64,000 nt of DNA from Narcine bancroftii (lineage: Eukaryota). The stretch spans positions 207,080,001 to 207,144,000 of the forward strand of contig NC_091473.1 in NCBI RefSeq assembly GCF_036971445.1, written 5' to 3'. The position numbers and the translations under genes were made by a program. The notes under the pieces are model-generated. The model was not told where the DNA came from. It saw only the letters and a program-made list of their open reading frames with translations, and did no database searches. This document shows, piece after piece, positions 20,601 to 50,889 of the stretch (within the stretch, counting starts at the first letter, position 1; each line of letters opens with the position of its first letter).

Positions 20601-20668
20601 GGGAGAGAGAGAGAGAACTCCAATGATGTATTGGCAGGTCGTATATTGTACGAGGGTTGAGCACTGTG

Positions 20669-20987: not shown

Positions 20988-21139
20988 ACAAGTGCTGACA
21001 AGGCCATTATATTTAAATATTCTAAATTACAAATAAAAGCTTACCATTAATTCTAAATACAGGCTTAACGTAAATGCGGATATCGTAAGATAAGTCATCC
21101 CCTTCTCATGAATTAGAGGACGTTGCATGTTACTTAGCA

Positions 21140-21390
21140 ATAGCGTGACATGGTTAGTGTAGAAGTTAGTGCAATGCTGCTACAGATCCAATGATCAGGA
21201 CCAGGTTTTGAATCCCACATTTTCTATAAGGAGTTTGTACATTCTCTCCGTGTCTGCATGGGTTTCTTTTGAGGGCTCCAGTTTCCTCCCGCCATTCAAA
21301 ACGTACCATGAGTTGTAGGTTAATTTGGTGTAATTGAGTATCATGGTGTCACGGCCGAAAGGGACTGTTAATATGCTGTATGTCTAAATG
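21140..21390 (+). mobile_element. tRNA-derived V-SINE (HE1-like)
   Basis: A/B-box-like head then V-domain ggagtttgtacattctctccgtgtctgcatgggtttc...gtttcctccc. Confidence 0.75.
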
Positions 21391-22019
21391 TAATTTTTTT
21401 AATTAAAGTTTTAAATAAATCTTGCATTAAATGCAGACCAATCGATTATATTTTCTTTTTTGGAATTGTTTCCGTATATTAGCTTGTTATAAATTGCCTA
21501 TCATTCAGGTGAGGTAAGATTTCAGAAAGATTTACAGGCAGATCTACACCTGACAGTCATAGAAATGAATTAGTAGATAAACAGATAATCAAAAACAAAC
21601 AGACAAGTACTTGATGAATTACATAAGAGAGACAGGTGGACAGATAGAGAGAGAGGGGGGGAGGACGAACAAAACTGAAGATATTGAAATATTAAATCAA
21701 AACTAAAAATCTTGAAAACACTCAATGTCTTGAGAAGATTTGTGTTCAATTTGGATGGTTTCCGTAGTTGATTAACGTGTGCGAATGTTCAAATACCGTA
21801 TTTATACTTTGAAGAAGTAATTATTGATTGTGCGTGCAAGTAAGCATTCGACTTTGAATGAATAATGCTCCATTTCAGAAAAATAATTGTGTTCTCCTTA
21901 TTTATGAAATAAATTTCAAAGATCAGCGGATTTATTGGTTCTTTCAAATAAGACATGCAATGGAAATAGTGCGCAGTGAAAGTTATTTTACTGAATTTTG
22001 GGAGGGGATCATTTACTGG

Positions 22020-22075
22020 TGGATTTCTGGGAGGTTTTGTCATTTCTGTTTTGGAAGCGGCACCAATCCTATTGT
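22020..22075 (+). pseudogene. TRAJ: Truncated J-alpha pseudogene (..FCFGSGTNPIV)
   Basis: Spacer gaggggatcatt shared with other J; broken heptamer; 3' end and donor replaced by a copy of 25973-26212. Confidence 0.75.
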
Positions 22076-22830
22076 CATAGGAGACCACATGACATTGGGA
22101 GGAATATGCGAGTACGTGACTCCCAACAGAAAATGTATTGGTGACATTTTCACCCATGCTTTTCACTGGGAATCAAAGTTACAGGGAGAACTCTTAGACG
22201 AATCACAATAACATAGAAAGGTGTTCACCGATAGCCTTTGAAGTGCATAAATAAATAATGTTTCTATCATTTCTTTTTTTTTTAAGAAATTTGTCAATTC
22301 AGTGCCAGAATAGGTCAGGAAACAGGCACGAAGATCTTAAAGTATCAGGGAGAATGGGAAAGGCAGGAAGTTGAAAATGGGAATATCTCAGATAAGGCAA
22401 GCTCCGAGACAAGGTCAGAACATGCTGGATATGCACAGAGGTCAGCCGTGTGACATGGTCTACCCTTTAGCCTGAGCATCCCTTCGACCTCTTTCCCAGT
22501 CTGATGAATGTTTATCAACATTGTTTTAACTGGTATTTTGAGGCGGAATAAAATCAAACAAAATCTTAGCAGTGATTTCCTTTGGGGAAAGCGGATGAAT
22601 ATGCTTTTATTATGTTATATTCGTTTGTGAAATGGGCAGGAAAACAATCCCTTATGGGGAACATTTTAAGATGGAGTTAAAGGGATTAGGTGACAGTCAA
22701 AATTATTAAAGAACATTCATAAAATGAGGCTGGATTTTAAAAAATAAATCTTAGATTTATGGGGCTACAGGTAATTGAAAGAACATTATTGAGAACATCA
22801 AATGTATTTGTAAAGGGGTTGACCACTGTG

Positions 22831-22893
22831 TGAATTCTGCAGGTAGCTGGGAGTTGATATTTGGAATTGGGACTCGACTAGTTGTCGAACCAG
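22831..22893 (+). CDS. TRAJ: TCR alpha J segment (NSAGSWELIFGIGTRLVVEP)
   Basis: RSS tgtatttgt-12-cactgtg; FGIG; gtaagt. Confidence 0.95.
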
Positions 22894-23363
22894 GTAAGTG
22901 TTTAGAAGGTCATTTTATTTTGCGAATCTTAATTTACAATGATCGCTTTTGGAAAATATAAATAAATTCTGAGATGTTATCCCCATCTACAATATGAGAG
23001 AAAATTGTATCTTCCTTTTGACTCATTCTGTATACAGCCAAATATGTTGCATTCCTATTTTTACAATGGTTGTGCCATCTTTAGTGGTGAAGAAATATCT
23101 ATCTCAAACGTTAAACAAAGGAACTGCCAGGCATAAATACTGATCGATTGACAGAGGGGGAAGGGGTCAGATGAACAAATATGTTCAGATAGAGATAGAT
23201 AGAGAAAGGAAGAAAGAGAGAGAAAAAACATAACTATTCCAATAATTTACAAAGCAAAATTGCCAACGAGATGACGATGTCATTTAACTCATTGAAAAAA
23301 TATGACCGTCATTCCAAGGGAGCGGACCTAAACGGGGTTTTCGTGAGGGGATAATTTGCTGTG

Positions 23364-23425
23364 TGAATCTGGAGGTATCGACAAATTGATGTTTGGGAGC
23401 GGCACCAACCTTATTATTAATCCTG
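23364..23425 (+). CDS. TRAJ: TCR alpha J segment (ESGGIDKLMFGSGTNLIINP)
   Basis: RSS ggttttcgt-12-tgctgtg; FGSG; gtaggt. Confidence 0.93.
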
Positions 23426-24122
23426 GTAGGTTATCAGCATTTAAAAATAGTTTTCAAACAAATTCCAAATTCTGGTCAGCATAGCATGTTGTTTTAATGG
23501 ATGCCAAAAGGTTTCCATTATAATATCGACAGATAAAATTGTGAAGTGAGGGCAACACAATCTCTATTCATGCAATTCATGAGATAACATGTATGTTGAA
23601 CATGTAATTTTTGAAAAATTCATAGCTTATTGTGCAGCGTTAGAGGTTCAGAGGAGAACTGAGAAGTAATATTCATCCAGTTAGTGGTTAGAGTCTAGAA
23701 TGCACAACTTGGTGGCTGGTGGAGATTGAGATTCTCAGTATGAAGGCCGTAAATCATTATAATTCAGCAGGTCATAGAGCAAGGAACCAGAACATGCAGC
23801 AATCAAATATCCAATTTCACTAATCCTGTGAAAATCCAATTGCTCTCCAAACATTCTTCTGTCCATACTCTGCCATTCAGATACACACTGAAGAAAATTT
23901 ACAGCTGCCAATCCTTTTACTCCAGAAAAGAGGGAGGGGGGGTTTAGTCTTCAGAAGTGGGTGGAGGCAGGCAATCTCACAACATCTGTTGTGTCTGGGG
24001 GAGCAGTTGAATCTTCAAGTCTATGGGCCATCTGCTAGTAAATAGGACTAGAATAGGCATGGAACTGATGGACAGCATGGATGTGGTAGGGTGAAGGGTC
24101 TGTTTCTGTATGATTATCTAAA

Positions 24123-24978
24123 GCAGTGGTTCTCAACCTTTTTATTTTCACTCACATGGTATGTGATTAGGTGTTCTGTGATGAGAAAGGGATTGATTAA
24201 GGTGGTATGTGGATAGAAAGAAAAAGTTTGAAAACCACTGTATTAATCGTAACTAATTGACTTATTATGTGTATGGTTCCATTACTCCCTTGCCATTGAG
24301 GGAGTGCAAATAAGATTGACTAGTTTGATACCAGGGATGGCAGGACTTACATATGAAGAAAGGCTAGATTGACTAAGCTTATACTCGCTGGAATTTAGAA
24401 GATTGAGAGGGGATTTTATAGAAACGTATAGAATTCTAAGGGAATGCACAGGTTAGATGCAGAAGGTTGTTCCAAATGTTGGGGGAAACCAAAACCAGGG
24501 GTCACAGTTTAAGGATAAGAGTGAAGTCTTTTAGGACTGAGATAAGAATGAAAATTCTCTCAGAGCGTGGTGAATCTGTGCAATTCTCTGCCACATGAAG
24601 TAGTTGAAGCCAGGTCTTCATCTATATTTAGGAGGAAGATAGATTTGGCCCCAGTGGCTAAGGGGATCAGGAGATGTGGGGAGAAAGCAGGTATTGGGTA
24701 CTGAGTAGAAGATCAGCCATGATAAAAATGAGTGGTGGTGTAAATTAGAAGGGCCAAATGGTCTACTCCTGCACCAATCATCGATTTTTCTAAATTGTCA
24801 AAGGAAATGGGCCAATTACAATTTTTCTCAATCAAAATATTTCACTAACAATTACGTCTAGAGCCGTCCTTTACCCCTCACATACCATCTTAAGTAATCC
24901 CTATAATCATAGAGTAATTATGGCGTAGGTTTACTTAAAGTGGTATGTGAATGGAAAGAAAACGTTTGGGAACCACTG
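24123..24978. mobile_element. hAT (Charlie-like) MITE interrupted by a CR1 fragment (about 24289-24795)
   Basis: TIRs cagtggttctcaa / ggaaccactg; decayed 8-bp TSD atctaaag / gtctaatg. Confidence 0.75.
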
Positions 24979-26369
24979 GTCTAATGTATTCTCATCCTTT
25001 ATTCTACCTGTGTGCGTTCCTCTGTGAATAGCCTCAATGAAGTTATGTTTAGACCTAGAATAAAGCTAAAAATTAGTTGGAAAAGTCGAATTAATGAACA
25101 GTCAAAATGCACTTTTGCAGACGAATAGCAGGTCGTTGTCATGAAAACCAAATTGTAAAGATTAAGGGGATTGTTTGTGACCTCTCTGGAGTCTTCGAGG
25201 TAAGGTTTGATATCAGGGCACATTACCCAAACTTAAAGACGCGTTCAAACCCCCAAGTTACTAAAGTAAGGTGATAAAATAGTAATTACCTCCACGGTTT
25301 GTTTTTTTTTTACCCAGTACAGGACTCAGAGGAAGCCTCCCTGAGGTACAAATGGTTTGTACAATTTATACATTTCGACATTAAATATTTTATTGGACTT
25401 TTACGGAACTGTTCGTGATGATATTATTGCAGTTAATAGGAAAGTGAGAAATCAGGGGAAAGTCGCAGGGAAGCTGTAGTAGGAATGAATGGGCACTGGT
25501 AGTGCAAGATCCAAGACATGATCATAAAATGCTGGAACTTGCTCTGTCATCCGGCGCATGGCACCATCTTCTTTTCTCCTGTGCATCCCTCCCACACCAC
25601 CCCTGAAATTTGCAGGAAACCTATATTTTCTCATTCCTTCTTTGGAATGAATTTCAACCTGACATATTATCCATTTCCTCTGACCAGCTGGACGTCCCAC
25701 AATTCCGTTTTTCCGTGGGATTTATTTATGTTCTGAAAGATATGAGGTTCCAGAGTGGGCACAAAGGGGAAGTATGCCTTATGACATAGAAGGGGTTTTG
25801 TCAGACACCCGACATTCCACCGGCTCCCAGATTAACCAACTGATATAATCTGTAACTCATTCTTCGCTTATCACCAGCAACTCCATCTCCCGCCTTCACT
25901 GGCAACAGTTTCAATCAACAACTAACCTTGCGACCCGCACATCCTTGGGATGAGGGAGGAGATGAGAACACCCATAGGAGACCACATGACATTGGGAGGA
26001 ATATGCGAGTACGTGACTCCCAACAGAAAATGTATTGGTGACATTTTCACCCATGCTTTTCACTGGGAATCAAAGTTACAGGAAGAACTCTTAGACGAAT
26101 CACAATCACATAGAAAGGTGTTCAACGATAGCCTTTGAAGTGCATAAATAAATAATGTTTCTATCATTTCTTTTCTTTTAAGAAATTTGTCAATTCAGTG
26201 CCAGAATAGATCAGAATTTGAACTGGGGTCAAGGGAATTGGATATCAGTGAAAATGATTGAACATTATAGATTGATAGATTGAAGGATTTAATTGGGATT
26301 GCGGTTCAGAACCAAATGTAGCTATTGTAAAATCCGAAAGGTGTATTTGTAAGGGTGTCGGGCACTGTG

Positions 26370-26432
26370 TGAATTCTGGGGCCAGTAGAGGATTAATATT
26401 TGGAACGGGGACTCGACTCATTATCCAACCAA
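26370..26432 (+). CDS. TRAJ: TCR alpha J segment, cassette 1 type A (NSGASRGLIFGTGTRLIIQP)
   Basis: RSS tgtatttgt-12-cactgtg; FGTG; gtaagt. Confidence 0.95.
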
Positions 26433-26840
26433 GTAAGTGTTGAATAAGACTTTCAATTTTGCACCTCTTAATTCTAAATGCTAGATTTTAGCGAATGGCA
26501 TGAGATGTTACACCCGTCGACTAAATTGGAGAACAGAGCTTCTTACTTAAAACGCAATCTCCGTAAAATTAAGATAATATGAATTGTCCCCACTTTCAGA
26601 ATTGGTCTCAATATAGTTTTTTCTAGTCCTCAACCGTCTGTTGCGCACGTTAAACACAACTATTGACAAATATTAATACAGATGAAAGAAAGAATGATGT
26701 ATTTTACAGAGGATGAAATACACATGGGATTGAGAGATACAGGACATAAATATAAAAAATCAGTGTTTGTCTGTATGATTACCTTACAAAGCCAACATTA
26801 GATTGCCAAGGAATAGATTGCAAGAGGGTTAAGCACTGAC

Positions 26841-26901
26841 TAAATTATAGAAGCAGAATGTTTAATATTTTGAAATGGAACCAGACTGACTGTAAAACCC
26901 A
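26841..26901 (+). pseudogene. TRAJ: J-alpha pseudogene, cassette 1 type B (..LIF*NGTRLTVKP)
   Basis: Heptamer cactgac; in-frame tga; donor ctaaga. Confidence 0.85.
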
Positions 26902-27182
26902 CTAAGAGCAAACATTCCCAAGTTCATTGGTTTTCATCAGATATTGCATGAGTGGAACTCCGTGCTTATATTCCGAGGAAGTACATGATTGTGGGAAGCA
27001 ATCAATGTTGACATTTAAATAAATAATGTGTACAAGGTGAATATAAACTATGCTCACAATATATCAAACAAAATCACTCAATAGATGGTAGCATTGTTTT
27101 ATTTTTTTAATATATATGTAATTACAATGATGCAGAGGGTGCGGCCACTAGGCGAGTTCTTGTGAGGGGATCATTTGCAGTG

Positions 27183-27245
27183 TGAACGCTGCCGGGACCA
27201 ACAAATTAGTGCTTGGAAGCGGCACCAGATTTATTGTTAATCCTG
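27183..27245 (+). CDS. TRAJ: Non-canonical J-alpha ORF, cassette 1 type C (NAAGTNKLVLGSGTRFIVNP)
   Basis: RSS agttcttgt-12-tgcagtg; LGSG; gtaagt. Confidence 0.85.
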
Positions 27246-27943
27246 GTAAGTTATTGAAAGTTCAAACGAATTTTTTAAGAAATGTCTAAATTCTTATCAA
27301 CGTGCAATGCTGTGGGTAATGGACGTTACAGGTTTTCTGCTACATTTTCAATAGCATTCGTCCTACTGAGAAGTAAAAATAGCTGAAATCTCCCGGAAAT
27401 TATTCAACAATCAATTCCATGGTGAAGCTTTTAATTAATTAATTAATTCTTCCCAATGAACGTTTGTGAATGGTGGCAGATTTGAAAGAGGTCTGAGGGG
27501 CATATTTTTTACGCAAATGATGTTTGAACACTGAAATCTACTACCTGTGGGTTGACCGCAGCATAGAGTCCATCCGCATTCACAACATAAATTGGCAAAG
27601 CCCAACAATTCATAATTTTACTCATTTATTTTCCAAACATCCTATGTTTGGACGGTGGAGGTAATTTACAGACTCCAATCTTTTACCGGGGGTAGGGGAG
27701 TAATCTACCTGGTAAGGCAGTAGGAGCTGCTTTCCCAGAACATTATAGCCTGTGCTAGCAATTTAATCGTCAAAACAGAGAAGGCTGTGGACTAAGTCGT
27801 GGAAATTGTATTACGTAGATAGGTATCCTATGGGAAGCAGGACGGTGGTGGGCCTCAGGGGCCACACGAGTCCGTGATGAAATAACACATGTTGAACTTG
27901 GTGCCAGGTAAGAGTGTTTCTGGACTACTAATGCAATACCATG

Positions 27944-27999
27944 TGAATAACATCGATCCACTAGTATTTGGAACGGAACCAAATTACAGGTGGAACCTC
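27944..27999 (+). pseudogene. TRAJ: J-alpha pseudogene, cassette 1 type D (NNIDPLVFG, frameshift, GTKLQVEP)
   Basis: Heptamer taccatg, 13-bp spacer; 1-nt deletion inside FGTG. Confidence 0.85.
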
Positions 28000-28575
28000 G
28001 TAAGTCTGATTTATTATGTATTTTTGTATAGTACATCTCCAAATGCGGTTCTATCTTTCTCTTTCGGGTTGCTATCATTAAGACCTAATTTTAGACATTC
28101 AGACGAATTGGGTGCAAGAAGGAAATCCCGTAAAGTTTGTTCAGATGGAAAGTGAGGGAGGTGGCAAAACAAGGTATCGGAAGGTGCTTGTATTCAAACC
28201 AGTACATAAATGTGTTGAAGAAACTCAGTATCCATAAAACGCAACAAGGTTTCTTTTGAAGAAAGAATTTTGAGGACGGGTTCAGGCCTGAAAAGTCGAC
28301 TTCATTTTGCTCTCTATGGATACTGCACGACCAAATAACTTTGTCCAGCACTCATGTGTACCGCAAGGGAGGAATGGTCAGTTTGAGCATATCTGACAGC
28401 TTGAGATCCGAGGGGTAATCAAATAAATGAGAGACTGCAGACATCAGGCGATTAGCATTATTAGCATCATTCACTTGAGGATTTTTCTCACATTGCCACT
28501 GAAATTCGCCAAAGACCTGCCCGCATCTCCTACCCAATTCTGAGAAATCTTCCTAGACCTGAAACGTTAACTCGT

Positions 28576-28950
28576 TGGTTTTCAAACTGCCTCCCCCCAA
28601 ACTCAAATTCCTCCTTCAGCTATCCCTGTCCCATGAGTGCTCTGTTATTGATAAGGTATGGCTTAAGGTGGTATGTGGGTGGAAAGAAAGGGGTTTGAAA
28701 ACCACTGTTTTAATCATACCTAATTGACTTGTAATGTGCACGGTTTCACAACACCAAAGGAAATGAGCCAGTAACAATTTTTCTCAAGCAAAACTATTTC
28801 ATTAATAATTGGGTCTAGAGCAGTGGTTCTCAGCCTTTATTTCACACTCACATCCCGCCTTAAGTAATCTCTTACCAATCACTGAGCACTTACTTCATAG
28901 GGATTGATTAAGATGGAATATGAGTTTAGGGGGCAGATTGAAAACCACTG
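28576..28950. mobile_element. hAT MITE inside the cassette (paralogues about 33115-33452 and 37668-38040)
   Basis: Same two fold-back-unit structure ending ttgaaaaccactg. Confidence 0.7.
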
Positions 28951-29282
28951 CGTTTCTGATTCTATCTCCACACATGTTGTCCGGACTGAGTGTTTCTAGA
29001 ATACTGTTTTTCAGTAGAAATGTTTGCATGTTGAGAAGGATGTGAAGTTTGAGGGAGAGCGGAAGGGAGATATGTCTCCCCACAAGATGGGATGGGCCAC
29101 TTCTTCACCACGGATTTTTCACTGTAATCTATTCGCCCAATATCCCCAACAATTCCCAATCCTTCCTTGAGTGGGGAACGTTTACAGTGGAAGACTGACC
29201 TAGAAACCCACACATTCTTGAGATGTGATAGATGCTGGGAGCACCCGGAGAACTTATGTGACAGAGGAGGTAAATAATAGAG

Positions 29283-29627
29283 CAGTGTTTCCCAACCTTT
29301 TTCTTTCCACTCACATACCGCTTTAAGTATTCCCTATGCTATAAGTACTTTGTGATTAGTAAGTGATTACTTAGGATGGTTATATGGGTGGAAAGGAACA
29401 GTTTGAAAACCACTGCTTTAATCGTACATTTGACTCGTTATGTGCACGGTTTCATAACTCCAAAGGAAATGGACCAATGACTATTTTTATCAATCAAAAT
29501 ATTTCAATTACAAGTGAATCTAGATCAATGATTCTCAAACTTCCCTCACTTAAAAAATCCCTTACTAATCACAAAGCACTTATGGCATAGGGTTTACTCG
29601 AAGTGGCATGTAAGTGGATGGAAAAGG
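29283..29627. mobile_element. Hybrid hAT MITE at the cassette 1/2 junction
   Basis: Left flank taatagag, right flank gtctaagg (non-matching TSDs). Confidence 0.75.
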
Positions 29628-30929
29628 GTCTAAGGTATGCTCATCAGTTGTACCCCTGTGCGTTGCTCTGTAAAAAGCCTCAATTAGATCATATTTATAC
29701 CTCGATCCAGGCTAAAGATGAGTCTGGAAAAATTGGATTTATGGACATCAAAATGCACTTTTTGCGGATGCATAGCAGGTCGTTGTCAATAATGCCAAAT
29801 TGTAAAGATTAATAGCAAATAAGGGGATGGTTTGTGACCTCTCTGGAGACTTCGACGCAAGGTGTAACATGATGGTAAAATTGCTCAAACTTAAAGAAGC
29901 GATCAAAACCCCTAGTTATTAAAATAAGGTGGCAAATAGTAATTATCTCCGAAGTTTATTTACCAAGTACAGGACTCAGAGGAAGTCTCCCTGTCCAGAG
30001 ATTGGTTTGTAGAATTAACACATTTCGACATTAAATACTTTTGTTAGACGTTTACAGAATCGTTGATGATGATGTTATTGCAGGAAAGAGAAAGATAGAA
30101 ATCAGGTGAAAGTCGCAGGGAAGCTGGAGTAGGAATGAATGGGGGACACTGGTAGTGTGAGGTCCAAGACATAATTAAACTGCTGGAAACGCTCTGACAT
30201 CCGGCGCATGGCACCATCTTCATTTCTCCTGTGCATCCCTCCCAAACCACCCCTGAAACTTGCATTTTATCTTTCCGTCTTTGGAATAAATTTCAATTTG
30301 AGATGTTAACCGATTTTCTCTGACCAGCTGGGTGTTTCCAGAATTCTGTTTTTTTCCTTGTGATTTGTTTATGTTAGGAAAGATGTGAGATTCCAGAGAG
30401 GAAACAAAGGGGATTTGTTCCCTTATGATATAGAAGGAGCAGCCAGATTCACCACCTGATATAATCTGTAACTCATAGCACCAGCAACTCCATCTCCCAC
30501 CTTCACTGGCAACAGTTTACAGTCAACAACTAACCTCGCAACCCGCACATCATTCGGATGTGGACTCACATATGATCCCACATGACTTTGAGTGGACTAT
30601 GCGAGTACGTGACTCCCAACATAAAAAGTAGTGGGATTTTTTTTCACCCTTGCTTTTCACTGGGAATCAAAGTTACAGGAATAACTCTTAGACAAATCAC
30701 AATGAAATAGAAACGTGGTCAATGATTACATTCGAAGCGCATACATAAATAATATTCCTATTGTTTGGGTTAGTCTTTGAGCTGGGGTCAAGGGAAAATT
30801 ATTGAATCTAGATAGTAAAATGAGAAAAGATTGAAGAAATATTTAGATTCAATTGGCATTGTGGTTCAGAACCAAATGTGGCCATTGTTAAATCCAAGAA
30901 GTGTATTTGTAAGGGAGTCGATCACTGTG

Positions 30930-30992
30930 TGAATTCTGGAGCCAATTGGAGATTAATATTTGGAACCGGGACTCGACTGATTATCCAACCAA
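30930..30992 (+). CDS. TRAJ: TCR alpha J segment, cassette 2 type A (NSGANWRLIFGTGTRLIIQP)
   Basis: RSS tgtatttgt-12-cactgtg; FGTG; gtaagt. Confidence 0.95.
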
Positions 30993-31385
30993 GTAAGTGT
31001 TAGGAAAGTCTTTAAATTTTGCTGCTCTTAATTCTAAATGCTAGATTTTGGCGAATGCCATGGGATGTTATTCCAATCGACTAAATTGGAGAACAGAGCT
31101 TCTTACTTAACACGCAATTTCCATGTAATTCAGATAATAGGACTTCTCCCCACTTTCACAATTGGTCTCAAGTTTTTCTATTCCTAAACCACCTGTTCCA
31201 TGGGTTAAACAAACCTATAGACAAACATAAATACAGATGAAAGAAATATTAATGTGTTATACAGAAAATGAAATGCACGTGAGATTGAGAGATGCATGAC
31301 ATAAATATGATAATGGGTATGATTACCTCCCAAACCCAACCTTAGATTGCCAGGGAATAGCTTGAAAGGGGGGTTGAGCACTGAA

Positions 31386-31448
31386 TAAATTTTATAAAAG
31401 CAGAATATTTAATATTTGGAAATGTAACCAAACTGTCTGCAGAACACA
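31386..31448 (+). pseudogene. TRAJ: J-alpha pseudogene, cassette 2 type B (..LIFGNVTKLSAEH)
   Basis: Heptamer cactgaa (GTG lost); FGNV. Confidence 0.8.
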
Positions 31449-31742
31449 GTAAATGCAGATGTTCCCAAATTCATTGGTTTTCATTGGATATTGCAAGAGT
31501 GTGTGAAAGAGTGGAACTCCGTGCTTTTATTCCTAGGAAGTACATGATTGTGGGAAGCAGTCAACATTGAAATTTGAATAAATAATGTGTACAAGCTGAA
31601 CATAAACTAGTCTCTCAATTTATCAAACAAAATCACTCAATGAATGGTAGCATTGATTCATTTTTAAAAAATCATATGTAATTACAAAAATGCAGAGGGT
31701 GCAAACACTAGACGAGTTCTTGTGAGGGGATCATTTGCTGTG

Positions 31743-31805
31743 TGAATGCTGGTGGGACTGGCAAATTAGTATTTGGAAGTGGAAGCAGACTTCTTGTTAA
31801 TCCAG
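31743..31805 (+). CDS. TRAJ: TCR alpha J segment, cassette 2 type C (NAGGTGKLVFGSGSRLLVNP)
   Basis: RSS agttcttgt-12-tgctgtg; FGSG; gtaagt. Confidence 0.95.
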
Positions 31806-32524
31806 GTAAGTTATTGAAGTTTCAAACAAAGTTTTCAAGCAAATGCTAAATTCTTATCAACGTGACATGCTGTGGGTAATGGACGTTACAGGTTTTCCGC
31901 TGCATTTTCAGTAGCATTGGTCCTACTCAGAAGTGAAAACAACTGAAGTCTCGCGGATCTGATTCACCAATCAATTCTATGGTGAACCTTTAAATGAAAT
32001 AATTTGCTCTTCATAACATATTTATGTGAATCGTGACAGATTTAACAGATATCTGAGGGGAGTCTCTTTTACGCAAATGATGTTTGGCCCCTGAAACATA
32101 CCTCCTGTGGGTTAATCGTGACAGAGATTCTATCCTCATTCACAACATGAATTGGCAAACCCCCACAACTCATATCTTCACTCATCCTACAGAAGTGCCA
32201 TTTATTTTCCAAACATCCTATAGCTACACGCTAGAGGCAATTTACGGACTCTTTTACGTAGGGTGTAGGGGTTGGGGGTAATCTACCTGGTAAAGCGGTA
32301 TAAGCTGCTTTCCCAGAACATATATAACATGCCTTGGCTAGCATTTCAATCGTCAAGGCAGAGAAGGCTATGGACTCAGTGTTGAAAATTGTATTATGTA
32401 GATAGTTATCCTATGAGGAGCAGGACGGTGTTGGGCCTGAGTGACCACATGTGTCTGTGATACAGTAACGCAGGTGCATTTGGGGCCAGTTAAGGGGGTT
32501 TCTGCACTACTATGCAATACTGTG

Positions 32525-32581
32525 TGAATAGCATTGATGCCCTAGTATTTGGAACTGGAACCAAATTACGGTTGGAACCTC
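32525..32581 (+). CDS. TRAJ: TCR alpha J segment, cassette 2 type D (NSIDALVFGTGTKLRLEP)
   Basis: RSS ggtttctgc-12-tactgtg; FGTG; gtaagt. Confidence 0.93.
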
Positions 32582-33776
32582 GTAAGTCCGATTAATTATG
32601 TATTTTTCAATAGCACATCCTTAAATGATGTTCCATCTTTCTCTATCGGGTCGTTATCATTAAAGCCTAATTATAGACATTCGGACGAAATGGTGTCAAG
32701 AAAGAAATCCCGGTACAATTACTGAGATAGAAAGGGAGGGAGGGTGGATAAACAAGATGTCTGAAGGTGCTCGGTATCCAGAGAACGCAAAAGGTTTTCC
32801 TTTTGAAGGAATTCTGAGGACGAGTTCAGGCTTGAAACGCCGATTTCCTTTTGCTTTCTCTGGATGCTGCGCGACCCGATGGGTTTCCCTAGCATGTATG
32901 TGTACGACAAGGGAGGAGAGGTCAGTTTGAGCATATCTGGAAGCATGAGATCCAAGAGGTAATCAAATAAATGATGGAACGCAGACGTCTGGCGAATAGT
33001 ATCATCTTCTCATTCACCTGAGGTTTCCTCTCACATTGCCACTGAAACTCGTCAACACCTGACCCATTCTCCTACCTAATTCTGATAAGTCTTCCTAGAC
33101 CTGAAACGTTAACTCCCTCCAAACTCACATTCCACTTTAAGCAATCCCTGTATCATAAGTGCTATGTGATTAATAAGGGATTGCTTAAGGTGGTATGTGG
33201 GTGGAAAGAAAGGGGTTTGAAAACCACTGTTTTAATCATACCCAATTTACTCCTTGTGTGCACGATTTCATAACTCCAAAGGAAATGAACGAGTAACAAT
33301 TTTTCTCAAGCAAAAATATTTCATTAACAATTGGGCCAAGACAAGTGGTTCTCAACCTTTTGTTCACACTCACACAACACCAAAGGTAATCACTTACTTA
33401 CGTCATAGGGATTGCTTAAAGTGGAATGTGAGTTTAAGGGAGAGTTTGACAACTATCTCCACACATGTTGTCCGGACTGCTGACTGCTTCCAGAATACTG
33501 TTTATAAGTAGAAATGTTTGTAGGTTGAGAAGGATGTGAAGTTTGAGGGAGAGCGGAAGGGAGATATGTCTCCCCACAAGATGAGATGGGCCACTTCTTC
33601 ACCACGGATTTTTCACTGTAATCTATTCGCCCAATATCCCCAACAATTCCCAATCCTTCCTTGAGTGGGGAACGTTTACAGTGGAAGACTGACCTAGAAA
33701 CCCACACATTCTTGAGATGTGATAGATGCTGGGAGCACCCGGAGAACTTATGTGACAGAGGAGGTAAATAATAGAG

Positions 33777-34135
33777 CAGTGTTTCCCAACCTTTTTCTTT
33801 CCACTCACATACCGCTTTAAGTATTCCCTATGCTATAAGTACTTTGTGATTAGTAAGTGATTACTTAGGATAGTTATATGGGTGGAAAGGAACAGTTTGA
33901 AAACCACTGCTTTAATCGTACAATTGACTCGTTATGTGCACGGTTTTATAACTCCAAAGGAAATGGACCAATGACAATTTTTATCAATCAAACTATTTCA
34001 ATTACAATTGGATCAAGAGCAGTGATTCTCAAACTTTCCTTACTTTAGCAATCCATTACTAAACACAAAGCACTTATCGCAGATGGTTTACTTAAAGTGG
34101 CATGAGAATGAATACAAAAAGTTTCAGAACCACTG
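33777..34135. mobile_element. Hybrid hAT MITE at the cassette 2/3 junction
   Basis: Left flank taatagag, right flank gtcgaacg. Confidence 0.75.
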
Positions 34136-35539
34136 GTCGAACGCATGCTCATCAGTTTTGTACCCCTGTGCGTTGCTCTGTAATTAGCCTCAATTAGATC
34201 ATGTTTAGACCTCGATCCAGGCAAAAGATGAGTGTGGAAAAATTGGATTTATGGACATCAAAATACACTTTTGCAAATACATAGCAGGTCATTGACATTA
34301 ATACCAAATTATAAAGATTAACACCGATTAAGGGGATGGTTTGTGACCTCTCTGGAGACTTCGATACAAGATTTGAAATGATGGCAAAATTACCCAAACT
34401 TAAAGACTCGTTCAAAACCCTTAGATATTAAAATAAGGTGGTAAATAGTCATTAACTCCGCGGATAATTTACCCAGTACAAGATTCAGAGGAAGCCTCCC
34501 TACCCAGAGATTGGTTTGTAGAATTTATACTTTTCGACATTAAATACTTTTGTTAGACGTTTACAGAATTGTTGATGATGATGTTATTGCAGGAAAGAGA
34601 AAGGGAGAAATTAGGGGAAAGTCGAAGGGAAGATCGAGTATGAATGACTGGTCACACTGGTAGTGCGAGATCCAAAACATGATCATAAAATTCTGGTACC
34701 TTTCTGACATCCGGCGCATGGCGCCATCTTCTTTCCTCCTGCGCATCTCTCCCACACCACCCCTGAAATTCGCAGGAAACCTGTATTTTTTATTTCCTTC
34801 TTTGGAATAAATTTCAATATGAGGTCTTAACCGATTTTCTCTGGCCAGCTGGGTGTTTCCACAGTTCTGTTTTTCCGTGGGATTTATTTATAAGTTAGGA
34901 AAGATGTGAGGTTCCAGAGTGGGCACTAAAGGGAATTATTGCCTTATGACACAGAAGAGGGTCTGTCAGCTACCGACACTCCACCCGCTTCTGGATTCAC
35001 CCAATGATATGATCTATAACTCATTCTTCGCATATCACCAGCAACACCATCTCCTGCCTTCACTGGCAACAGTTTACAATCACCAATTAACCTCGCGTTC
35101 ACACATCATTCAGATGAGGGAAGCGACGAGAACACCCATAGGAGCCCATATGACATTGGGGGAAATAAACAAATATGTGACGGCCAACAAAAAATGGAGA
35201 TTATTTGTTCACCCATGAATTTACCTGGGAATCAAAGTTACAGGAAGAATTCTTTGACGAACATAATCACATAGAAAAGTGTTCAATGATTACCTCTGCA
35301 GCAATTAAATAAATAATCTTTCTGTTGTTTCTTTTTTTTAAAGAAGGAATGTTGTTTGACAATTAAGTGCCAGAATTGGTCAGAATTTGAGATGGGGTCA
35401 AGGGAAAACGATTGAAATATAGAGAATAAAATGAAAAATGTTAGAAGAAAATTTAGATTTAATTGGCATTGCGGTTCAGAGCCAAATGTGGCCATTGTTA
35501 AATCTGAGAGGTCTATTTGTAAGGGTGTCGGGCACTGTG

Positions 35540-35602
35540 TGAATTCTGGATCCAATTGGGAATTCATATTTGGAACCGGGACTCGACTAATTATCCAATC
35601 AA
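35540..35602 (+). CDS. TRAJ: TCR alpha J segment, cassette 3 type A (NSGSNWEFIFGTGTRLIIQS)
   Basis: RSS tctatttgt-12-cactgtg; FGTG; gtaagt. Confidence 0.93.
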
Positions 35603-36006
35603 GTAAGTGTTGTAAAAGACTTTCAATTTTGCAGCTCATAATTCTAAATGCTAGTATTTAGCGAATGGCATGACATGTTCTGCCTGTTTACTAAATAGGA
35701 GAACAGAACATCTTACTTAACACGCAATCTCCGTAAAATTCATATAATGGGAATTGTCCCCACTTTCACATTGGTCTCAATTTTTTTTCTAGTGCTGAAC
35801 CATCTGTTGCGCAAGTTCAACAAAGTGATAGACCAACATAAATACAGTTGAAAGAAAGATTAATGTATTATACAGAGGATGGAATGCACATGAGATTGAG
35901 AAACATATTACATAAATTTGAAAAATTAGTTTCTGTCTGTATGATAACTTCACAAAGCCAACGTTAAATTGCTGGGGAGTAGATTACAAGAGGTTTGCAC
36001 ACTGAA

Positions 36007-36055
36007 TAAATTATAGAAGCATATGGAAATGGAACCAGACTGACTGCAGAACCCA
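36007..36055 (+). pseudogene. TRAJ: J-alpha pseudogene, cassette 3 type B (..YGNGTRLTAEP)
   Basis: Heptamer cactgaa; internal deletion removes LIF. Confidence 0.8.
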
Positions 36056-36348
36056 GTAAGTGCGGACGTTCCCAAATACGATGGTTTTCATCGGATATTG
36101 CAAGAATATGTGAAGGAGTGTAACTCTGTGCCTATATTTCGAGGACGTACATGATTGTGGGAAGCACTCATCATTGTCATTTGAATGAATAATGTCTACA
36201 AGGTGAACATAAACTATTCTCACAATTTATCAAACAATATCACTCAATGGATGGTAGTATTGCTTTCATTTTAAAATAAATACATAATTACAAAAATGCA
36301 GAGGGTTTGGACATTAAACGAGTTCTTTTGAGGGGACCATTTGCTTTG

Positions 36349-36410
36349 TGAATGATGGAAGTATCAGTAAATTAGTCTTTGGAAACGGCACTAACTTATT
36401 GTTAGTCCTG
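36349..36410 (+). pseudogene. TRAJ: J-alpha pseudogene, cassette 3 type C (NDGSISKLVFGNGTN, frameshift)
   Basis: Heptamer tgctttg; 1-nt deletion after FGNG puts the donor out of phase. Confidence 0.85.
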
Positions 36411-37019
36411 GTAATTTGTTGAAAGTTCAAACGAAGTTTTAAAGCAAATACTAAATTCTTAGCATCGTGGGTAATGGACGTAATTAAGTCTCCCAGAACT
36501 GATTCACCAATCAAATCCATGGTGAACTGTTAAATAAAATAATTCACTCTTCATAACGAACATATGTGAATGGTGACGGATTTAGAAGAGATCTGATAGG
36601 TATCTCTTTTACCCTAATTATGTCCATCCGCATTCAAAACATGAATTGCCAATTCATAATTTCACTCATCCTACAGAAGTCCCATTTATTTTCCAAACAT
36701 TTTATTTTCTACGACTCAGCTAAAAACTAGAGGTATTAACGGACTTGTTTAACCCGGAGGGGAGAGGTTTTAATCCACCTGGTAAGGCGATGGGAGCTGA
36801 TTCATCAAAACATTTACCAAGTGCCTTGGATAACACTTGAATCGCCAAGGCTGAGAAAGCTATGGACTCAGAGCTGGAAATTGTATTACCGTAGATAGGA
36901 ATACCGATGGGAAGCAGGACGGTGTTGGGCTTGAGGGACCATACGACTCCGCGATGCAATAACACATGTTGAATTTGGGGCCAGGTAAGGGGGTTTCTGC
37001 ACTACTATGCAATACTGTG

Positions 37020-37076
37020 TGAATAACCTTGATACGTTAGTATTTGGAACTGGAACCAAATTGCAGGTGAAACCTC
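37020..37076 (+). CDS. TRAJ: TCR alpha J segment, cassette 3 type D (NNLDTLVFGTGTKLQVKP)
   Basis: RSS ggtttctgc-12-tactgtg; FGTG; gtaagt. Confidence 0.93.
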
Positions 37077-38377
37077 GTAAGTCCGATTTATATATATCTT
37101 TCTATAGTACATATCTAAAGTTGTTCTATCTTTCGCTATCGAGTTGCTAGCATTAAAGCCTAAATTTAGAAATTCGGACGAATTGGGAGAAAGAGAGAAA
37201 TCCCGTTAGAGTTGCTGAGAGGTAAAGTGAGGGAGCTAAAGTGGCTAAACAAGATGTCTGAAGGTGCTGGTATCCAGTCCAGTACATAATCGTGTTAAGG
37301 AAACTCAGCAGGTCATTCAATATCCAGAGAACGGAGAAGGCTTTCCTTTTGATGAAGGATTTTGAAGAAGGGCTCAGGTCTGAAACGTCGCCTTCCTTTT
37401 GCTTTCTATGGTTGCCGCGATACCCAATGGGTTTCCCTAGCACTTATGTGTATGACAAGGGAGTAAAGGTCAGTTTGAGCGTATCTGGCAGCATGCGAAC
37501 TGAGAGGTAATCAAATAAATGATGGAACGCAGACGTCTGGCGAATAGCATCATCTTCTCATTCACCTGAGGATTCTTCTCACATTGCCACTGAAACTCGC
37601 CGAATACCTGACCTATTCTCCTATCTAATTCTGAGAGGTCTTCCTAGACCTGAAACGTTAACTCCGAGGTTTTCAAACTGCCTCCCCCAAACTCAAATTC
37701 CACCTGAAGCAATCCCTGTGCTATAAGTGCTCTGTGATTAATAAGGGATTGCTTAAGGTTGTATGAGAGTGGAAGGAAAAGGGTTCGAAAAACACTGTTT
37801 TAATCATACCTAATTGACTTCTTGTGTGCACGGTTTCATAACTCCAAAAGAAATGAGTCAGTAACAATTTTTATCAAGCAAAAATATTTCATTAACAATT
37901 GGGCGAAGACAAGTGGTTCTCAACCTTTTGTTCACACTCACACATCACCTTACGTAATCCCTCACCAATCACAGAGCACTTGTGTCGTAGGGATTGATTA
38001 AGGTGGAATGTGAGTTTAGGGGGCAGTTTGAAAACCATTGAGTTAACTGATTCTATCTTCATACATTTTGTCCGGCCTGCTGATTGTTTCCAGAATACTG
38101 TTTTTCAGTGGAAATATTTGCAGGTTGAGAAGGATGTGAAGATTTGAGGGAGAGCGGGAGGGAGATATCTCTCCCCACAAGATGGAATGGGTCATCTCTT
38201 CACCACGAATTTTCTCAATATAATCCATTTTCCCAATATCCCCAACATTCCAAATCCTGCCTTTAGTGGAGAACGTTTACAGTGGCAAACTGACCCAGTG
38301 GCCCTCACATCCATGAGATGTTATAGATGCTGGGAGCACCCGGTGAACCCATGTGACAGAGGGGGTGAATAATAGAG

Positions 38378-38734
38378 CAGTGGCTTTTATCCTTTTTCTT
38401 CCTACTCACAAACCACTTTAAGTATTCCCTATGCCATAGGGACTTTAAGATTTGTAAAGGATTGGTTAAGGATGGTTGTGTGGGTGGAAAGAAAAAGGTT
38501 GAAAGCCACTATTTTAATCGTACTTAATTGACTCGTTATGTGCATGGTTTCATAACTCCAAAGGAAATAGCCCAATGACAATTTTTATCAAGCAAAATAT
38601 TTCAGTAACAATTGGGTCCAGAGCAGTGATTCTCAACCTTTTGACTCACATATCACCTTAATCACAGAGCACCGATGGCATAGGGATTACTTAAAATGGT
38701 ATGTGAGTGGAAAGAAAAAGGTTGAGATCCACTG
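38378..38734. mobile_element. Complete ~357-bp hAT MITE with perfect 8-bp TSD
   Basis: TAATAGAG at 38370-38377 and 38735-38742; cagtgg...ccactg termini. Confidence 0.85.
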
Positions 38735-39531
38735 TAATAGAGCAAGTGACGGCGAGTCCCAGGCAAATTGAAGACCTTCAATTTTCTTCTGTCAATTAAA
38801 GAGACAAAGAGAAAGCTGTGGGGCAGAATGAAATCACAGAAAAACTCGATAATTATTTTCTTTGAAACGCTCAGATAAATCATGTTTAAGCTCCATTGCT
38901 TATATTCGTTTGTTAACATAAAGTTGGACAGAAATTCGCTGCTTTATGAGGCCAATATTGAGCTGGTATTGTGCGTGTTTAAAAATGGTTAAAATCTCTT
39001 CCCTAAAATTAAGGATCTATTGAAGGAATAAAATATTGCATTTAAGGAGAATCCTTAAGGATTCATTATTTGGAAGAGGACGATGTGGACATTGTTAAGG
39101 CCAGTGGGAATATATGTTTCATTTTCTTTATATTGGGTTTAACATACAAAGTCATCTATTATAACAAACAGATTAAATATAAACATCTATTCATAAATGT
39201 TTAACATTATTTCTTTAAAACATCAAATTCTATCAATTTGGTTATTAACCGTTTATCACTTTCTCATAATGTATTCCAATATAATTCTTGATAGAAAATG
39301 AATAAGGCTAAATTAAACAATCCCTGTTTCTAAACAGAGGGTAAATTCTATCTTAAGTAATGATATGATCCATGACAATCATATTTAAACCCATGTTTAA
39401 CAAGTTAATCTAAACAAAAGATATGGTAAAAGGGAAAAAAAGAAAGAATACCTAAAACTAATCTAACCTTTCCCTATAATCAAAATTAACTTGTAAAGAT
39501 TGGTGTATTTGTAAGGGGGTTGGGCACTGTG

Positions 39532-39597: not shown

Positions 39598-40141
39598 GTA
39601 AGTTTCTGGAAAATATATTCTAACTTACAAATGTTAATTAATATCAGAAACATAGTATTAATTTTCGTACTCGCTGTAACAAATAAGAAAATGTTATCTC
39701 CATCTCCCAGTTCAAAAAGTGAGGATACTTTAGCGGACATTTTGTTAGCGATTAAAACTAATCATTTATTTATAATACACAAAAGTGCTGGAGGATCTCA
39801 GCAGGTGACGCAGTGTCCTCAGGACGCAGAGATATATAAGCAGCGTTTTGGGCCTGAACCCTTTGTTAGGGCAATCCATTTTCAGAATTGTTACTTCACC
39901 TTGACTGGTAATTGACCATTTACAAGTTAAGGAAAGCGACAGACAAGCATGCATGCTGACAAACAGAAGAACTTATAGATGGAGAGACTATCGAAATAAT
40001 GGGAGATGGGCAGATGAACAGTGAGAGATAGGGGAGATAACCACGTGACAAATACAAAAATTAGCATCTATCTGTATTATTACTTCATGAAAACAACAAT
40101 GGATTGGCAGGGTGAATATTGTAAGAGGGCTTTTCACCGTG

Positions 40142-40201
40142 TGAATTATGGAGGAAGCAATTTAATATTTGGAAGTGGAACCTGGCTGACTGTAGAACCC
40201 A
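40142..40201 (+). CDS. TRAJ: TCR alpha J segment (NYGGSNLIFGSGTWLTVEP)
   Basis: RSS gaatattgt-12-caccgtg; FGSG; gtaagt. Confidence 0.92.
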
Positions 40202-40408
40202 GTAAGTTCCAATATTACCAATCTGCAGAAATTTCTGTAATTTCCGTCGTTAGTGAAAGCATGTGTGCAGAACTGGACATCCTTCCTGATATTTGAGGAG
40301 ATATGTGATAAATTGTGGACCCCCATAAGCCGCTTGGTTTTCATGAATCGAATCTAAAACTAATCGATTATCTTCCCATGCCGAAAGAGCAACCAAGTCA
40401 GCCACTAG

Positions 40409-40460
40409 GAATTCAGGCAGTTAATATTTGGGACAAAAACTCGAGTATTTGTCGAAACAG
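40409..40460 (+). pseudogene. TRAJ: J-alpha pseudogene (..QLIFGTKTRVFVET), paralogue of 20925-20987
   Basis: Broken heptamer, FGTK, no donor; flanks align with about 20850-21560. Confidence 0.7.
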
Positions 40461-41524
40461 AAAAGGGCAGAGAAGGCCATTATACTTTAATACTATTAAT
40501 TACAAATAAAATCTTACCATTAATTCTAAATACAGACTCAAAGCAAATATGAACATTGTAGAAGGCATCATCCCCGTCTCATACATTAGAAGACAGTGAG
40601 TGTTAATTAACATATATTCTGCTTAAAATGCAGACCAGTTGGCTATATTCTCTTTTTCAGAATTGCCTCCATATCTTGAATTGTAAATAATTGCTTATCA
40701 TCAGGTGAAATAATGTTTCAAAAGGATTTACAGGTAAGCAGGCTGACATGCCAACGCCTGACAGACATATAAATAGTTCGATAGATTAACACATAAATCT
40801 ATATACAAACAGTGGTTAGTTACTTTAAATAGATAGATCNNNNNNNNNNNNNNNNNNNNNNNNNNNNNNNNNNNNNNNNNNNNNNNNNNNNNNNNNNNNN
40901 NNNNNNNNNNNNNNNNNNNNNNNNNNNNNNNNNNNNNNNNNNNNNNNNNNNNNNNNNNNNNNNNNNNNNNNNNNNNNNNNNNNNNNNNNNNNNNNNNNNN
41001 NNNNNNNNNNNNNNNNNNNNNNNNNNNNNNNNNNNNNNNNNNNNNNNNNNNNNNNNNNNCTCACATCCCAAAGCTTAGTAAGATAATAAGATGCTATAAA
41101 TTATTCCTAGTGCGCAGATGAATGGTGAAATCTGAAGAGTATTAGTAGGTGGTGAGAATACATTTGGAGGTAACAAGATCAATATGATTTGCTGAACGAG
41201 TGGTCAGTGCAGGCCCTATGTATCTAAGGGCCTCATGTCGTGCTGTATTTTTCTCTGATTCATGCATAAAGATTTTTAAGGTCAACATATATTCAGTGGG
41301 GTGAATGGGCCAGATTATGTTTTCTTTGAGAGAATCAATGCATTCATAAATTGACACATTAGAGATATCCTGTCACATAAAGTATATTGATAATAAAATA
41401 ATATTTATAGAATTTACATTTATGAATGAAAACGACAAAACTTTAAATTTAGTTGCACACCTCAGTATTTCTGATAAACTGCCCCTAATGGTACAGTGTT
41501 ATTGTGAAGCCACCTGGCACTGTG

Positions 41525-49775: not shown

Positions 49776-50365
49776 TTTTAAAAGTAGAATTACATCTAAT
49801 TCCATCATCTTATCTGGCAGATTTGCATATATTAACCACTCTCTGTCCAAGAAACATAATCTTTAGGTGTAATTTAAAACTTATTTCTCACACCTCCACC
49901 AGATGCCTTCGACTTTTTGACGGCTCTCCCATGTCGAAACCGCTTTGCATCTTCCCTCTCCACACCTTAAATAGAGTCATAGAGCACGGAATAGGCCCTT
50001 CAGCCCAACTCGTTTAAGTAAAACAAGTCGTAATTCCGGGTCAATCTCATCTTCCTATGTTTTATCTGCAATTTTACCGCCCATTCCTACACATATAATC
50101 TTCTTCGCTTTTATTGGGTCACCCCTCAGGCTTATTCGTGCAGCGAAAACAAGCGAAGGTTCGGGGGTGAGTCGTTTTTTATGGCCTGTGTATGTGGTAT
50201 ATTTCTTCCATTATTATTGTAGGGGGAGGATAAAGTATTTGCCTGTTCAGATGATGGCCAGAGGGTTAAATTATCATCCCTCCTGTCAATCGCTCATGGG
50301 TTCCCTGGAAGCTGCGCAAAGCAGGACAGCAATGAGCTCACCCTCTGCCTTTCTTTCCTCCGTAG

Positions 50366-50662
50366 AAGGGGATGAATCATTGAAGCCGTCCCTCTATGTC
50401 CTCCGGCCATCTCCGTCTAAAAGCAATGACCAGGAGACCGATACCTCGGCGGCCTGCCTCGCCACCGAATACTTCTCCAACAAATACAATCTCAAAGTGA
50501 CCATCGGAGATGCCAGCAAGCAGAAGAGCAAAAAGGAGGCTTTGATCTCCATCAAGCACAAGACTTTCAATCTGTTCAGTTTCCTGTCTGTCCCCCGGTC
50601 TCAGATAATGAAAAGCATCTCATGTCAGCTCGAAACTCCGGGGGAAATAAAGAACGTCGAAG
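50366..50662 (+). CDS. TRAC: TCR alpha constant region exon 1 (Ig C domain)
   Basis: Pyrimidine tract plus cgtag acceptor, phase 1 matching the J donors; 297 nt encoding GDESLKPSLYVLRPS..AACLATEYF..SISCQLETPGEIKNVE with two Cys; donor gtaggt. Confidence 0.93.
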
Positions 50663-50889
50663 GTAGGTCGATTGTTTTATCACTGAAACTCCGTTTAACC
50701 GGCACCCTCGGGTCTCTGATTATGCCGGAATGATTCGTTCTGGACTATCGGGTATTTCGTATTAATGTGTCACTGAATCTTAAAGGTAATATTTCGGCGA
50801 ACTTCGCGAGTTTCAAGGGAGGGATCCCAGCAGAAATAGGTGCCTTTAGAGAGCGCGGAGAAGCCCAGGGCCCCACTGACTGCTTTGTT

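What the first reader, a model, noticed from the sequence alone, without database searches (positions are those of the whole stretch)
24123..38742. J-alpha repertoire expanded by unequal crossover between hAT MITEs, shown by swapped target-site duplications
Seen: the leftmost MITE (24123-24978) has TSD atctaaag/gtctaatg and the rightmost (38378-38734) has a perfect TSD taatagag/taatagag. The two internal junction MITEs (29283, 33777) have the left flank of the rightmost element (taatagag) and the right flank of the leftmost (gtctaagg tatgctcatc; gtcgaacg catgctcatc). Inference: this is the footprint expected if two independent insertions flanked a ~4.3-kb four-J block and non-allelic recombination between them produced three tandem copies, adding 8 J segments. 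It suggests a transposon-driven route for antigen-receptor segment expansion and possible copy-number polymorphism.
Basis: partly seen in the sequence, partly recalled or inferred. Interest (0 to 1): 0.7.

Follow-up and report, generated by a model that had tools for sequence, protein, structure and literature searches.

The report
Transposon-bounded triplication of T-cell J genes
In an electric ray's T-cell receptor alpha locus a 4.5-kb block of J gene segments stands in three old tandem copies that begin and end in small DNA transposons, likely because two such transposons recombined with each other, and this left three to four extra intact-looking J segments.

Summary
The TCR J-alpha array (electric ray) holds three tandem units of about 4.5 kb, 16-18% diverged. 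Homology starts and stops inside four copies of a ~360-bp hAT-type MITE. The junction MITEs carry the left flank of the last element and the right flank of the first. The TSD swap alone is weak evidence: it follows from any such duplication, and this family prefers NTCTAGAN-like targets. Better evidence lies inside the elements. Junction copies share letters with M4 on the left (3) and with M1 on the right (6), none crossed (P about 0.02), and lack M4's 15-bp deletion. Corrections: (1) probably only one MITE-by-MITE exchange occurred and the junction was then copied, since both junctions share a 15-bp deletion. (2) The units are mosaics, with a 480-bp, 1%-diverged tract that looks converted. 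(3) Five of 12 J segments are broken, so the net gain is 3-4 among about 40 intact J-alpha, not 8. Mis-assembly is unlikely. Copy-number polymorphism is untested, apart from a weak twofold depth step. The mechanism is known, but such repeat-bounded breakpoints are reported as rare in TCR loci.

The parts
24116..24123 (+). left target-site copy of M1 (ATCTAAAG)
   Evidence: 6 of 8 match to the right copy
24124..24978 (+). M1, left boundary hAT-type MITE, with ~510-bp LINE-like insert at 24289-24798
   Evidence: the insert is called LINE-like from recall, not from a search
24979..29282 (+). unit 1 (4304 bp between elements)
26370..26432 (+). J-A1, intact (NSGASRGLIFGTGTRLIIQP; heptamer CACTGTG, 12-bp spacer, GT donor)
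26841..26901 (+). J-B1, broken (heptamer ends GAC, stop in place of G, no donor)
27183..27245 (+). J-C1, open frame with L in place of F (LGSG); one contig of run X1 reads T at 27212, which would give FGSG; run X4 does not
27944..27999 (+). J-D1, broken (heptamer ends ATG, 1-bp deletion)
28575..28951 (+). b1, internal MITE of a related subfamily, inserted before the duplications
   Evidence: 13 derived letters shared by b1-b3
29032..29512 (+). recently homogenised tract, 1.1% from 33526-34006
29283..29627 (+). M2, junction MITE: M4-type left, M1-type right; tentative switch at 29489-29494
29628..33776 (+). unit 2
30930..30992 (+). J-A2, intact
31386..31448 (+). J-B2, broken (heptamer ends GAA, FGxG lost)
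31743..31805 (+). J-C2, intact
32525..32581 (+). J-D2, intact
33112..33452 (+). b2, internal MITE, both ends eroded
33526..34006 (+). partner of the recently homogenised tract
33777..34135 (+). M3, junction MITE, same chimeric pattern as M2
34136..38377 (+). unit 3
35540..35602 (+). J-A3, intact
36007..36055 (+). J-B3, broken (heptamer ends GAA, 12-bp deletion)
36349..36410 (+). J-C3, broken (heptamer ends TTG, 1-bp deletion)
37020..37076 (+). J-D3, intact
37664..38039 (+). b3, internal MITE
38378..38734 (+). M4, right boundary MITE, perfect 8-bp TSD (38370-38377, 38735-38742), 75-nt terminal arms 80% complementary, 15-bp internal deletion
50365..50679 (+). stretch holding the TCR alpha constant exon 1 (identifies the array as J-alpha)
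   Evidence: C1-set, E 1.7e-4; 99% to a protein named TCR alpha chain-like

Best explanation
Three diverged tandem copies of a four-J block of the TCR alpha locus begin and end in same-orientation hAT-type MITEs, and they likely arose when two separately inserted MITEs (M1, M4) recombined once, giving two copies and one chimeric junction, which a later unequal exchange likely copied. Shown: the anatomy, homology ending at the elements, the flank swap, the mosaic unit genealogy, the J status. Inferred: step 1, M1 and M4 insert ~4.3 kb apart; step 2, homology-directed exchange between them, tentatively at consensus positions 208-213 and more safely between ~99 and ~284; step 3, the junction gains its own 15-bp deletion and is copied with a unit by unequal exchange, at a point that cannot be fixed; step 4, repeated ectopic conversion (tracts at ~13%, ~6% and ~1% divergence, each touching a MITE) and decay of J-C3 and J-D1. 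J-B was likely dead before step 2. The net gain is 3-4 intact-looking J segments with new CDR3-side residues.
For: Homology ends at the elements. M4 has a perfect TSD; chance 3 of 2652. Letters shared with the junctions: M4 at consensus 65, 68, 208; M1 at 213, 314, 315, 327, 348, 362; none crossed. Simulated contrast P = 0.017. 0 of 3080 ordered pairs of unrelated copies are as clean. M4 has a 15-nt gap at 279-300, a type seen in 17 of 56 other copies, and M1, M2 and M3 lack it. The motif GGATGGTT occurs in M2, M4 and 1 of 56 others. M2 and M3 share a 15-nt gap and five letters absent from M1 to the right of the converted tract; right-half tree 93/91. The unit genealogy is mosaic (max z 5.55, 0 of 60 permutations). 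A second sample (X5, another study) holds letter-perfect pieces of all three units.
Against: Half-element trees do not place M2/M3 with M4 (left) or with M1 (right) at support of 80 or more; on the left M4 groups with L006 at 84/90 (14 of 56 other copies used). Raw distances in the right half are not smaller to M1 (0.24) than to M4 (0.20), because M4's right half is unusually close to the consensus (7 of 143 vs 26 of 208 on the left, Fisher P 0.016). No single half is significant alone (P 0.18-0.40). The 0-of-3080 control uses younger copies and is too lenient. M1's TSD is only 6 of 8, which 7.8% of unrelated pairs reach. The 5-bp crossover rests on two single sites. No listed contig bridges a junction MITE. 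The reciprocal deletion product and a one-copy ancestral state were not seen.
Confidence: 0.78

Rival explanations
1. Both junctions come from two independent M1-by-M4 crossovers; their shared features come from later conversion.
For: Conversion is clearly active here. The three units are nearly equidistant (0.169, 0.178, 0.165). The M2 and M3 right halves are ~20% apart.
Against: M2 and M3 share a 15-nt deletion and five letters absent from M1, outside the recent tract; tree 93/91. Once two 4.5-kb units exist they offer about 12 times more homology than the MITEs (inference).
Confidence: 0.1
2. hAT transposase made the duplication by alternative (reversed-ends or sister-chromatid) transposition, as Ac/Ds does in maize.
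For: The elements are hAT-like and the genome holds many hAT dimerisation-domain matches (150 of 150 scored). Ac/Ds makes tandem direct duplications with 8-bp TSDs (PMC4270019, passages).
Against: That route joins an element end to a new target site. Here the junctions keep M4's old left flank and M1's old right flank, full elements stand at both outer ends, and the switch lies inside the element.
Confidence: 0.05
3. The product is right but the exchange was a template switch or annealing repair (microhomology-mediated BIR, SSA-like) in the germ line rather than a meiotic unequal crossover.
For: M1 and M4 were probably already several percent apart, and PMC9675761 (passages) argues that many human repeat-mediated rearrangements between ~80% similar elements proceed by such routes.
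Against: None specific; the sequence product is the same. This is a variant of the best explanation.
Confidence: 0.05
4. The triplication is an assembly artefact.
For: No listed contig spans a junction. Contig depth over unit 1 is about half that over units 2-3 in run X1.
Against: The units differ by 16-18% with many private indels. Contigs of 650-1860 bp match each unit with 0-2 differences in X1, and X5 holds exact pieces of all three.
Confidence: 0.02

Closest known systems
Transposable-element-mediated rearrangements / NAHR between dispersed repeats (PMC9675761, passages read)
   Same: Direct-orientation repeats at both ends, a chimeric full-length element at the junction, duplications and higher-order amplifications (a repeat-flanked triplication in DNASE1 is described there).
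   Different: There the substrates are mostly Alu (80.5%) and LINE-1 and the events are polymorphic; 'DNA transposon' does not occur in its main text. Here the substrate is a hAT-type MITE, the event is old (~17%) and it lies in an antigen-receptor J array.
Tandem duplication of homology units in TCR loci (bovine TRB, PMC2685407, passages read)
   Same: Blocks with several gene segments duplicated in tandem, birth and death of the copies, gene conversion.
   Different: That paper says crossover between genome-wide repeats was proposed but that repeats are only rarely at unit boundaries in cattle and human TRB, and it assigns the DJC duplication to crossover between C genes. Here both boundaries lie in repeats and only J segments are involved.
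Ac/Ds alternative transposition and NAHR between two Ac elements (PMC4270019, passages read)
   Same: [quoted passage not shown]
   Different: Reversed-ends transposition creates a new target site at the junction, which is not seen here.
Non-autonomous hAT families with NTCTAGAN targets (Anolis hAT-HT1N1, HT3N1; PMC3014272, Table 1 passage read)
   Same: 8-bp TSD, NTCTAGAN bias, TIR beginning CAGTG, length of a few hundred bp.
   Different: The ray element is a composite of two ~135-bp inverted-repeat units and a spacer; no autonomous partner was found.

Membership tests
TCR J-alpha segments | 5' RSS with 12-bp spacer, FGxG motif, GT donor | tested here: met
   6 of 12 canonical, 1 with LGSG, 5 broken
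TCR J-alpha segments | long J array upstream of a C-alpha exon | tested here: met
   40 strictly intact J over ~71 kb (42 rows less one double count and one J 60 kb further upstream); C1-set exon at ~50.4 kb, 99% to a protein named TCR alpha chain-like
TCR J-alpha segments | used in rearranged transcripts | tested here: inconclusive
   see Tried and rejected
hAT non-autonomous element (MITE) | 8-bp target-site duplication | tested here: met
   27 of 52 other copies match at 7-8 of 8
hAT non-autonomous element (MITE) | short TIRs starting CAG, no coding capacity, high copy number | tested here: met
   over 6000 first-look candidates in the genome, 40 scored
hAT non-autonomous element (MITE) | NTCTAGAN target bias as in lizard hATs | tested here: met
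   commonest letters G-T-C-T-A-G-A-N; PMC3014272 Table 1
hAT non-autonomous element (MITE) | autonomous hAT transposase with the same ends | tested here: inconclusive
   no match to the MITE within ~1.5 kb of 20 of 150 PF05699 hits
NAHR between dispersed repeats | breakpoints inside same-orientation repeats | tested here: met
NAHR between dispersed repeats | junction repeat is a full-length chimera of the two parents | tested here: met
   moderate: sites P 0.017 plus two indel characters; trees unresolved
NAHR between dispersed repeats | ancestral one-copy state or reciprocal deletion exists | not testable with these tools
   no relatives held for this genome
Alternative transposition (Ac/Ds type) | element end joined to a new target site at the junction | tested here: not met
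   junction flanks are the old flanks of M4 and M1

The most novel reading that the evidence does not exclude
The MITEs did more than seed one old duplication: they keep this part of the J-alpha array recombining (all three homogenised tracts touch a MITE, and the element ends of M2 and b2 are eroded). Living rays then carry different numbers of units, as the twofold depth step between unit 1 and units 2-3 hints, so a DNA-transposon fossil would drive germline copy-number variation of TCR J segments.
Probability: 0.2. Interest if true: 0.65.

Novelty: new member of a known kind. Interest (0 to 1): 0.4.

Why it matters
Crossover between interspersed repeats has been proposed as the way TCR loci duplicate segment blocks, but repeats are reported to lie only rarely at unit boundaries (PMC2685407). 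This locus gives a concrete case with both breakpoints inside DNA-transposon copies, in a J-alpha array of a cartilaginous fish. It also shows the fate of the copies: about half of the duplicated J segments are dead, and the surviving J-A copies differ at 3-5 of 9 CDR3-side residues but at 0-1 of 11 framework residues. It is a single event adding roughly a tenth of the intact J-alpha set, so it illustrates a known mechanism rather than changing a view.

Tried and rejected
Expression: no RNA holder listed. Two runs guessed to be RNA (X6, X7) showed no listed contig on the unit-1 J exons; this is no evidence either way. Junction-spanning contigs: one search was swamped by genome-wide MITE pieces and none was listed. 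Extra near-identical copy of unit 2 elsewhere in the assembly: none among 40 scored of 123 candidates. Autonomous hAT partner: not found near 20 loci. Half-element trees: unresolved for the chimera. A single crossover point for the second duplication: rejected, the genealogy switches at least three times. An upstream fourth unit: rejected, 22076-22318 is an isolated 243-bp patch and other upstream matches are confined to J paralogues. Other duplications of 1 kb or more in the J-alpha array: none. Earlier scan notes: none. Nine literature searches listed no paper on this locus or on MITE-bounded J duplications. The library lacks most subscription papers, I read only passages of six papers and no supplements, so an annotation in a genome paper's supplement could have been missed.
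Full report
Setting. The window holds the 3' part of a TCR J-alpha array. Plus-strand J segments with 12-bp-spacer signals run across it. A C1-set exon lies at ~50.4 kb, and it is 99% identical to a protein that its source names T cell receptor alpha chain-like of Narcine bancroftii. A strict scan of the window plus 200 kb upstream gave 42 rows. Removing one double count and one J lying 60 kb further upstream leaves 40 intact J over ~71 kb. The filter misses a few, such as J-C1.

Observation. Self-BLAST shows one tandem alignment of 9.7 kb at 77.8%. The order is M1 (24124-24978) - U1 - M2 (29283-29627) - U2 - M3 (33777-34135) - U3 - M4 (38378-38734), with blocks of 4.15-4.30 kb. Aligned columns are 82-84% identical. 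The 200 bp left of M1 and right of M4 do not align to the corresponding flanks of the other elements, whereas the inner flanks do. Homology therefore begins and ends at the MITEs.

The element. It is a ~360-bp repeat with over 6000 first-look candidates in the genome. Of 56 other copies fetched, 52 had both ends recognisable; 27 of these have 7-8 of 8 matching flanks, and the target bias is GTCTAGAN-like. Lizard non-autonomous hATs have this same TSD type and TIRs beginning CAGTG (PMC3014272, table passage). No autonomous partner was found, so 'hAT' rests on TSD and TIR. The target bias matters: unrelated flanks match at 6 or more of 8 in 7.8% of 2652 pairs, so M1's 6-of-8 TSD is only moderate evidence, while M4's 8 of 8 (3 of 2652) is strong. 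The swap itself follows from any duplication whose ends lie in the two elements.

Are the junctions chimeric? Against the consensus of the 56 copies, M2/M3 share non-consensus letters with M4 at 65, 68 and 208 and with M1 at 213, 314, 315, 327, 348 and 362, with none crossed. One M1-M4 letter (166) is common in the family. M4 carries a 15-nt gap of a type seen in 17 of 56 copies, which M1, M2 and M3 lack. The motif GGATGGTT, which I read as two small insertions, occurs in M2, M4 and 1 of 56 others. A simulation weighting sites by their mutability gives P = 0.017 for the contrast, and no half is significant alone. No ordered pair of unrelated copies (0 of 3080) is as clean, but those copies are younger, so this control is lenient. 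Trees of the halves (14 of the 56 others) do not resolve the parents, and raw right-half distances do not favour M1. I judge chimerism moderately well supported. The switch maps tentatively to window 29489-29494, more safely between consensus ~99 and ~284.

One junction, copied. Right of the recently homogenised tract, M2 and M3 share a 15-nt gap and five letters that M1 lacks, and they pair in the right-half tree at 93/91. The simplest reading is one MITE-by-MITE exchange followed by a second unequal exchange that copied the junction. Where the second exchange lay cannot be fixed. The bulk of the units is nearly star-like (0.169, 0.178, 0.165). U2 and U3 are closer at the first 130 bp (0.064) and at 27901-28950 (0.133), while U1 and U2 are slightly closer in between (0.165 vs 0.18, P 0.07). 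The mosaic is significant (0 of 60 permutations). A 480-bp tract (29032-29512 vs 33526-34006) differs by only 1.1% and covers the crossover, so the left halves of M2 and M3 are one observation, not two. A third MITE in each unit (b1-b3) shares 13 derived letters and so predates both duplications.

What was gained. Each unit has four J-like segments. J-A is intact three times. J-B lacks the heptamer's terminal GTG in all three copies and was likely dead beforehand. J-C is intact in U2, open but LGSG in U1, and broken in U3. J-D is broken in U1 and intact in U2 and U3. Six canonical plus one doubtful segment replace three, a net gain of 3-4 among about 40. J-A copies differ at 3-5 of 9 CDR3-side residues and 0-1 of 11 framework residues, as expected if the framework is constrained (inference). 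This is the only duplication of 1 kb or more found inside the J-alpha array.

Reads. Four DNA runs of one sample hold 85-86% of sampled words; this may be the assembled individual and is not independent. Contigs of 650-1860 bp match U1, U2 and U3 with 0-2 differences. Run X5, from another study and label, holds exact pieces of all three units and of M1's insert. Mis-assembly is unlikely, though no listed contig bridges a junction. In X1, listed contigs over 22284-28687 have depth 3.75-6.0 and those over 31081-37015 have 10.1-12. A stretch present twice reads 8.9 against 5 and 4.3 for its two copies. This could mean a hemizygous U1, extra collapsed U2-U3 copies (none is in the assembly) or uneven library coverage. 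The library type is not on record, the tool warns that depth is no copy number, and low-depth X5 shows no such step. It is a hint only.

Comparison. The geometry is NAHR between dispersed repeats, well known for Alu and LINE-1 (PMC9675761, passages) and drawn for two Ac elements in PMC4270019 (passages). Alternative transposition would give a new target site at the junction, which is absent here. For TCR loci, PMC2685407 (passages) notes that repeat-mediated crossover was proposed but that repeats are rarely at unit boundaries. PMC5931798 and PMC12227049 (passages) showed nothing on J-alpha duplication in the passages seen. Nine searches listed no report of this locus.

Verdict. The feature is real and the core mechanism likely right. 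It is a new member of a known kind; interest 0.4.

Noticed in passing
window 22076-22318: A 243-bp copy of 25973-26214 (97.5% identical, 5 differences and one gap) sits at the cut 3' end of a decayed J relic (~22000-22075). It looks like a recent templated insertion from unit 1, 3.9 kb away. Both versions are present in runs X1 and X4. It offers a direct-repeat pair that could delete M1 and two intact J segments.
   Followed up: partly
window 22284-28687 vs 31081-37015: Contig depth in run X1 is about half over the left flank and unit 1 compared with units 2-3; X1 and X4 (one sample) differ at 26696, 27212 and 27624. Unexplained.
   Followed up: partly
window 27212: C in the window gives LGSG in J-C1; one X1 contig reads T (FGSG), X4 reads C. 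Possibly a functional/non-canonical allele pair, possibly an error.
   Followed up: partly
window 38378-38734 and 49370-49505: The MITE is a composite of two ~135-bp inverted-repeat units with a spacer ending in a GTCTAGAG target-like site; a solo unit lies at 49370-49505.
   Followed up: partly
window 24124-38734: Three original insertions of this family (M1, b, M4) lay within ~5 kb, while no other copy was found in the rest of the ~71-kb J-alpha array and four lie in the 200 kb upstream.
   Followed up: no
window 38378-38734: M4's right half is much closer to the family consensus (7 of 143) than its left half (26 of 208); conversion by a younger copy, or a bias from building the consensus on M4 hits.
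   Followed up: partly
window 20626-21602 vs 40099-40812: An older ~70% similarity extending beyond two J segments, a possible trace of an earlier duplication.
   Followed up: no
G000:C11, about 162-156 kb vs 116-110 kb upstream of the window start (L080-L081 vs L085): A ~6-kb pair at 74-83% identity; part of it recurs inverted ~44 kb upstream of the window start, so it may be a long repeat element.
   Followed up: no
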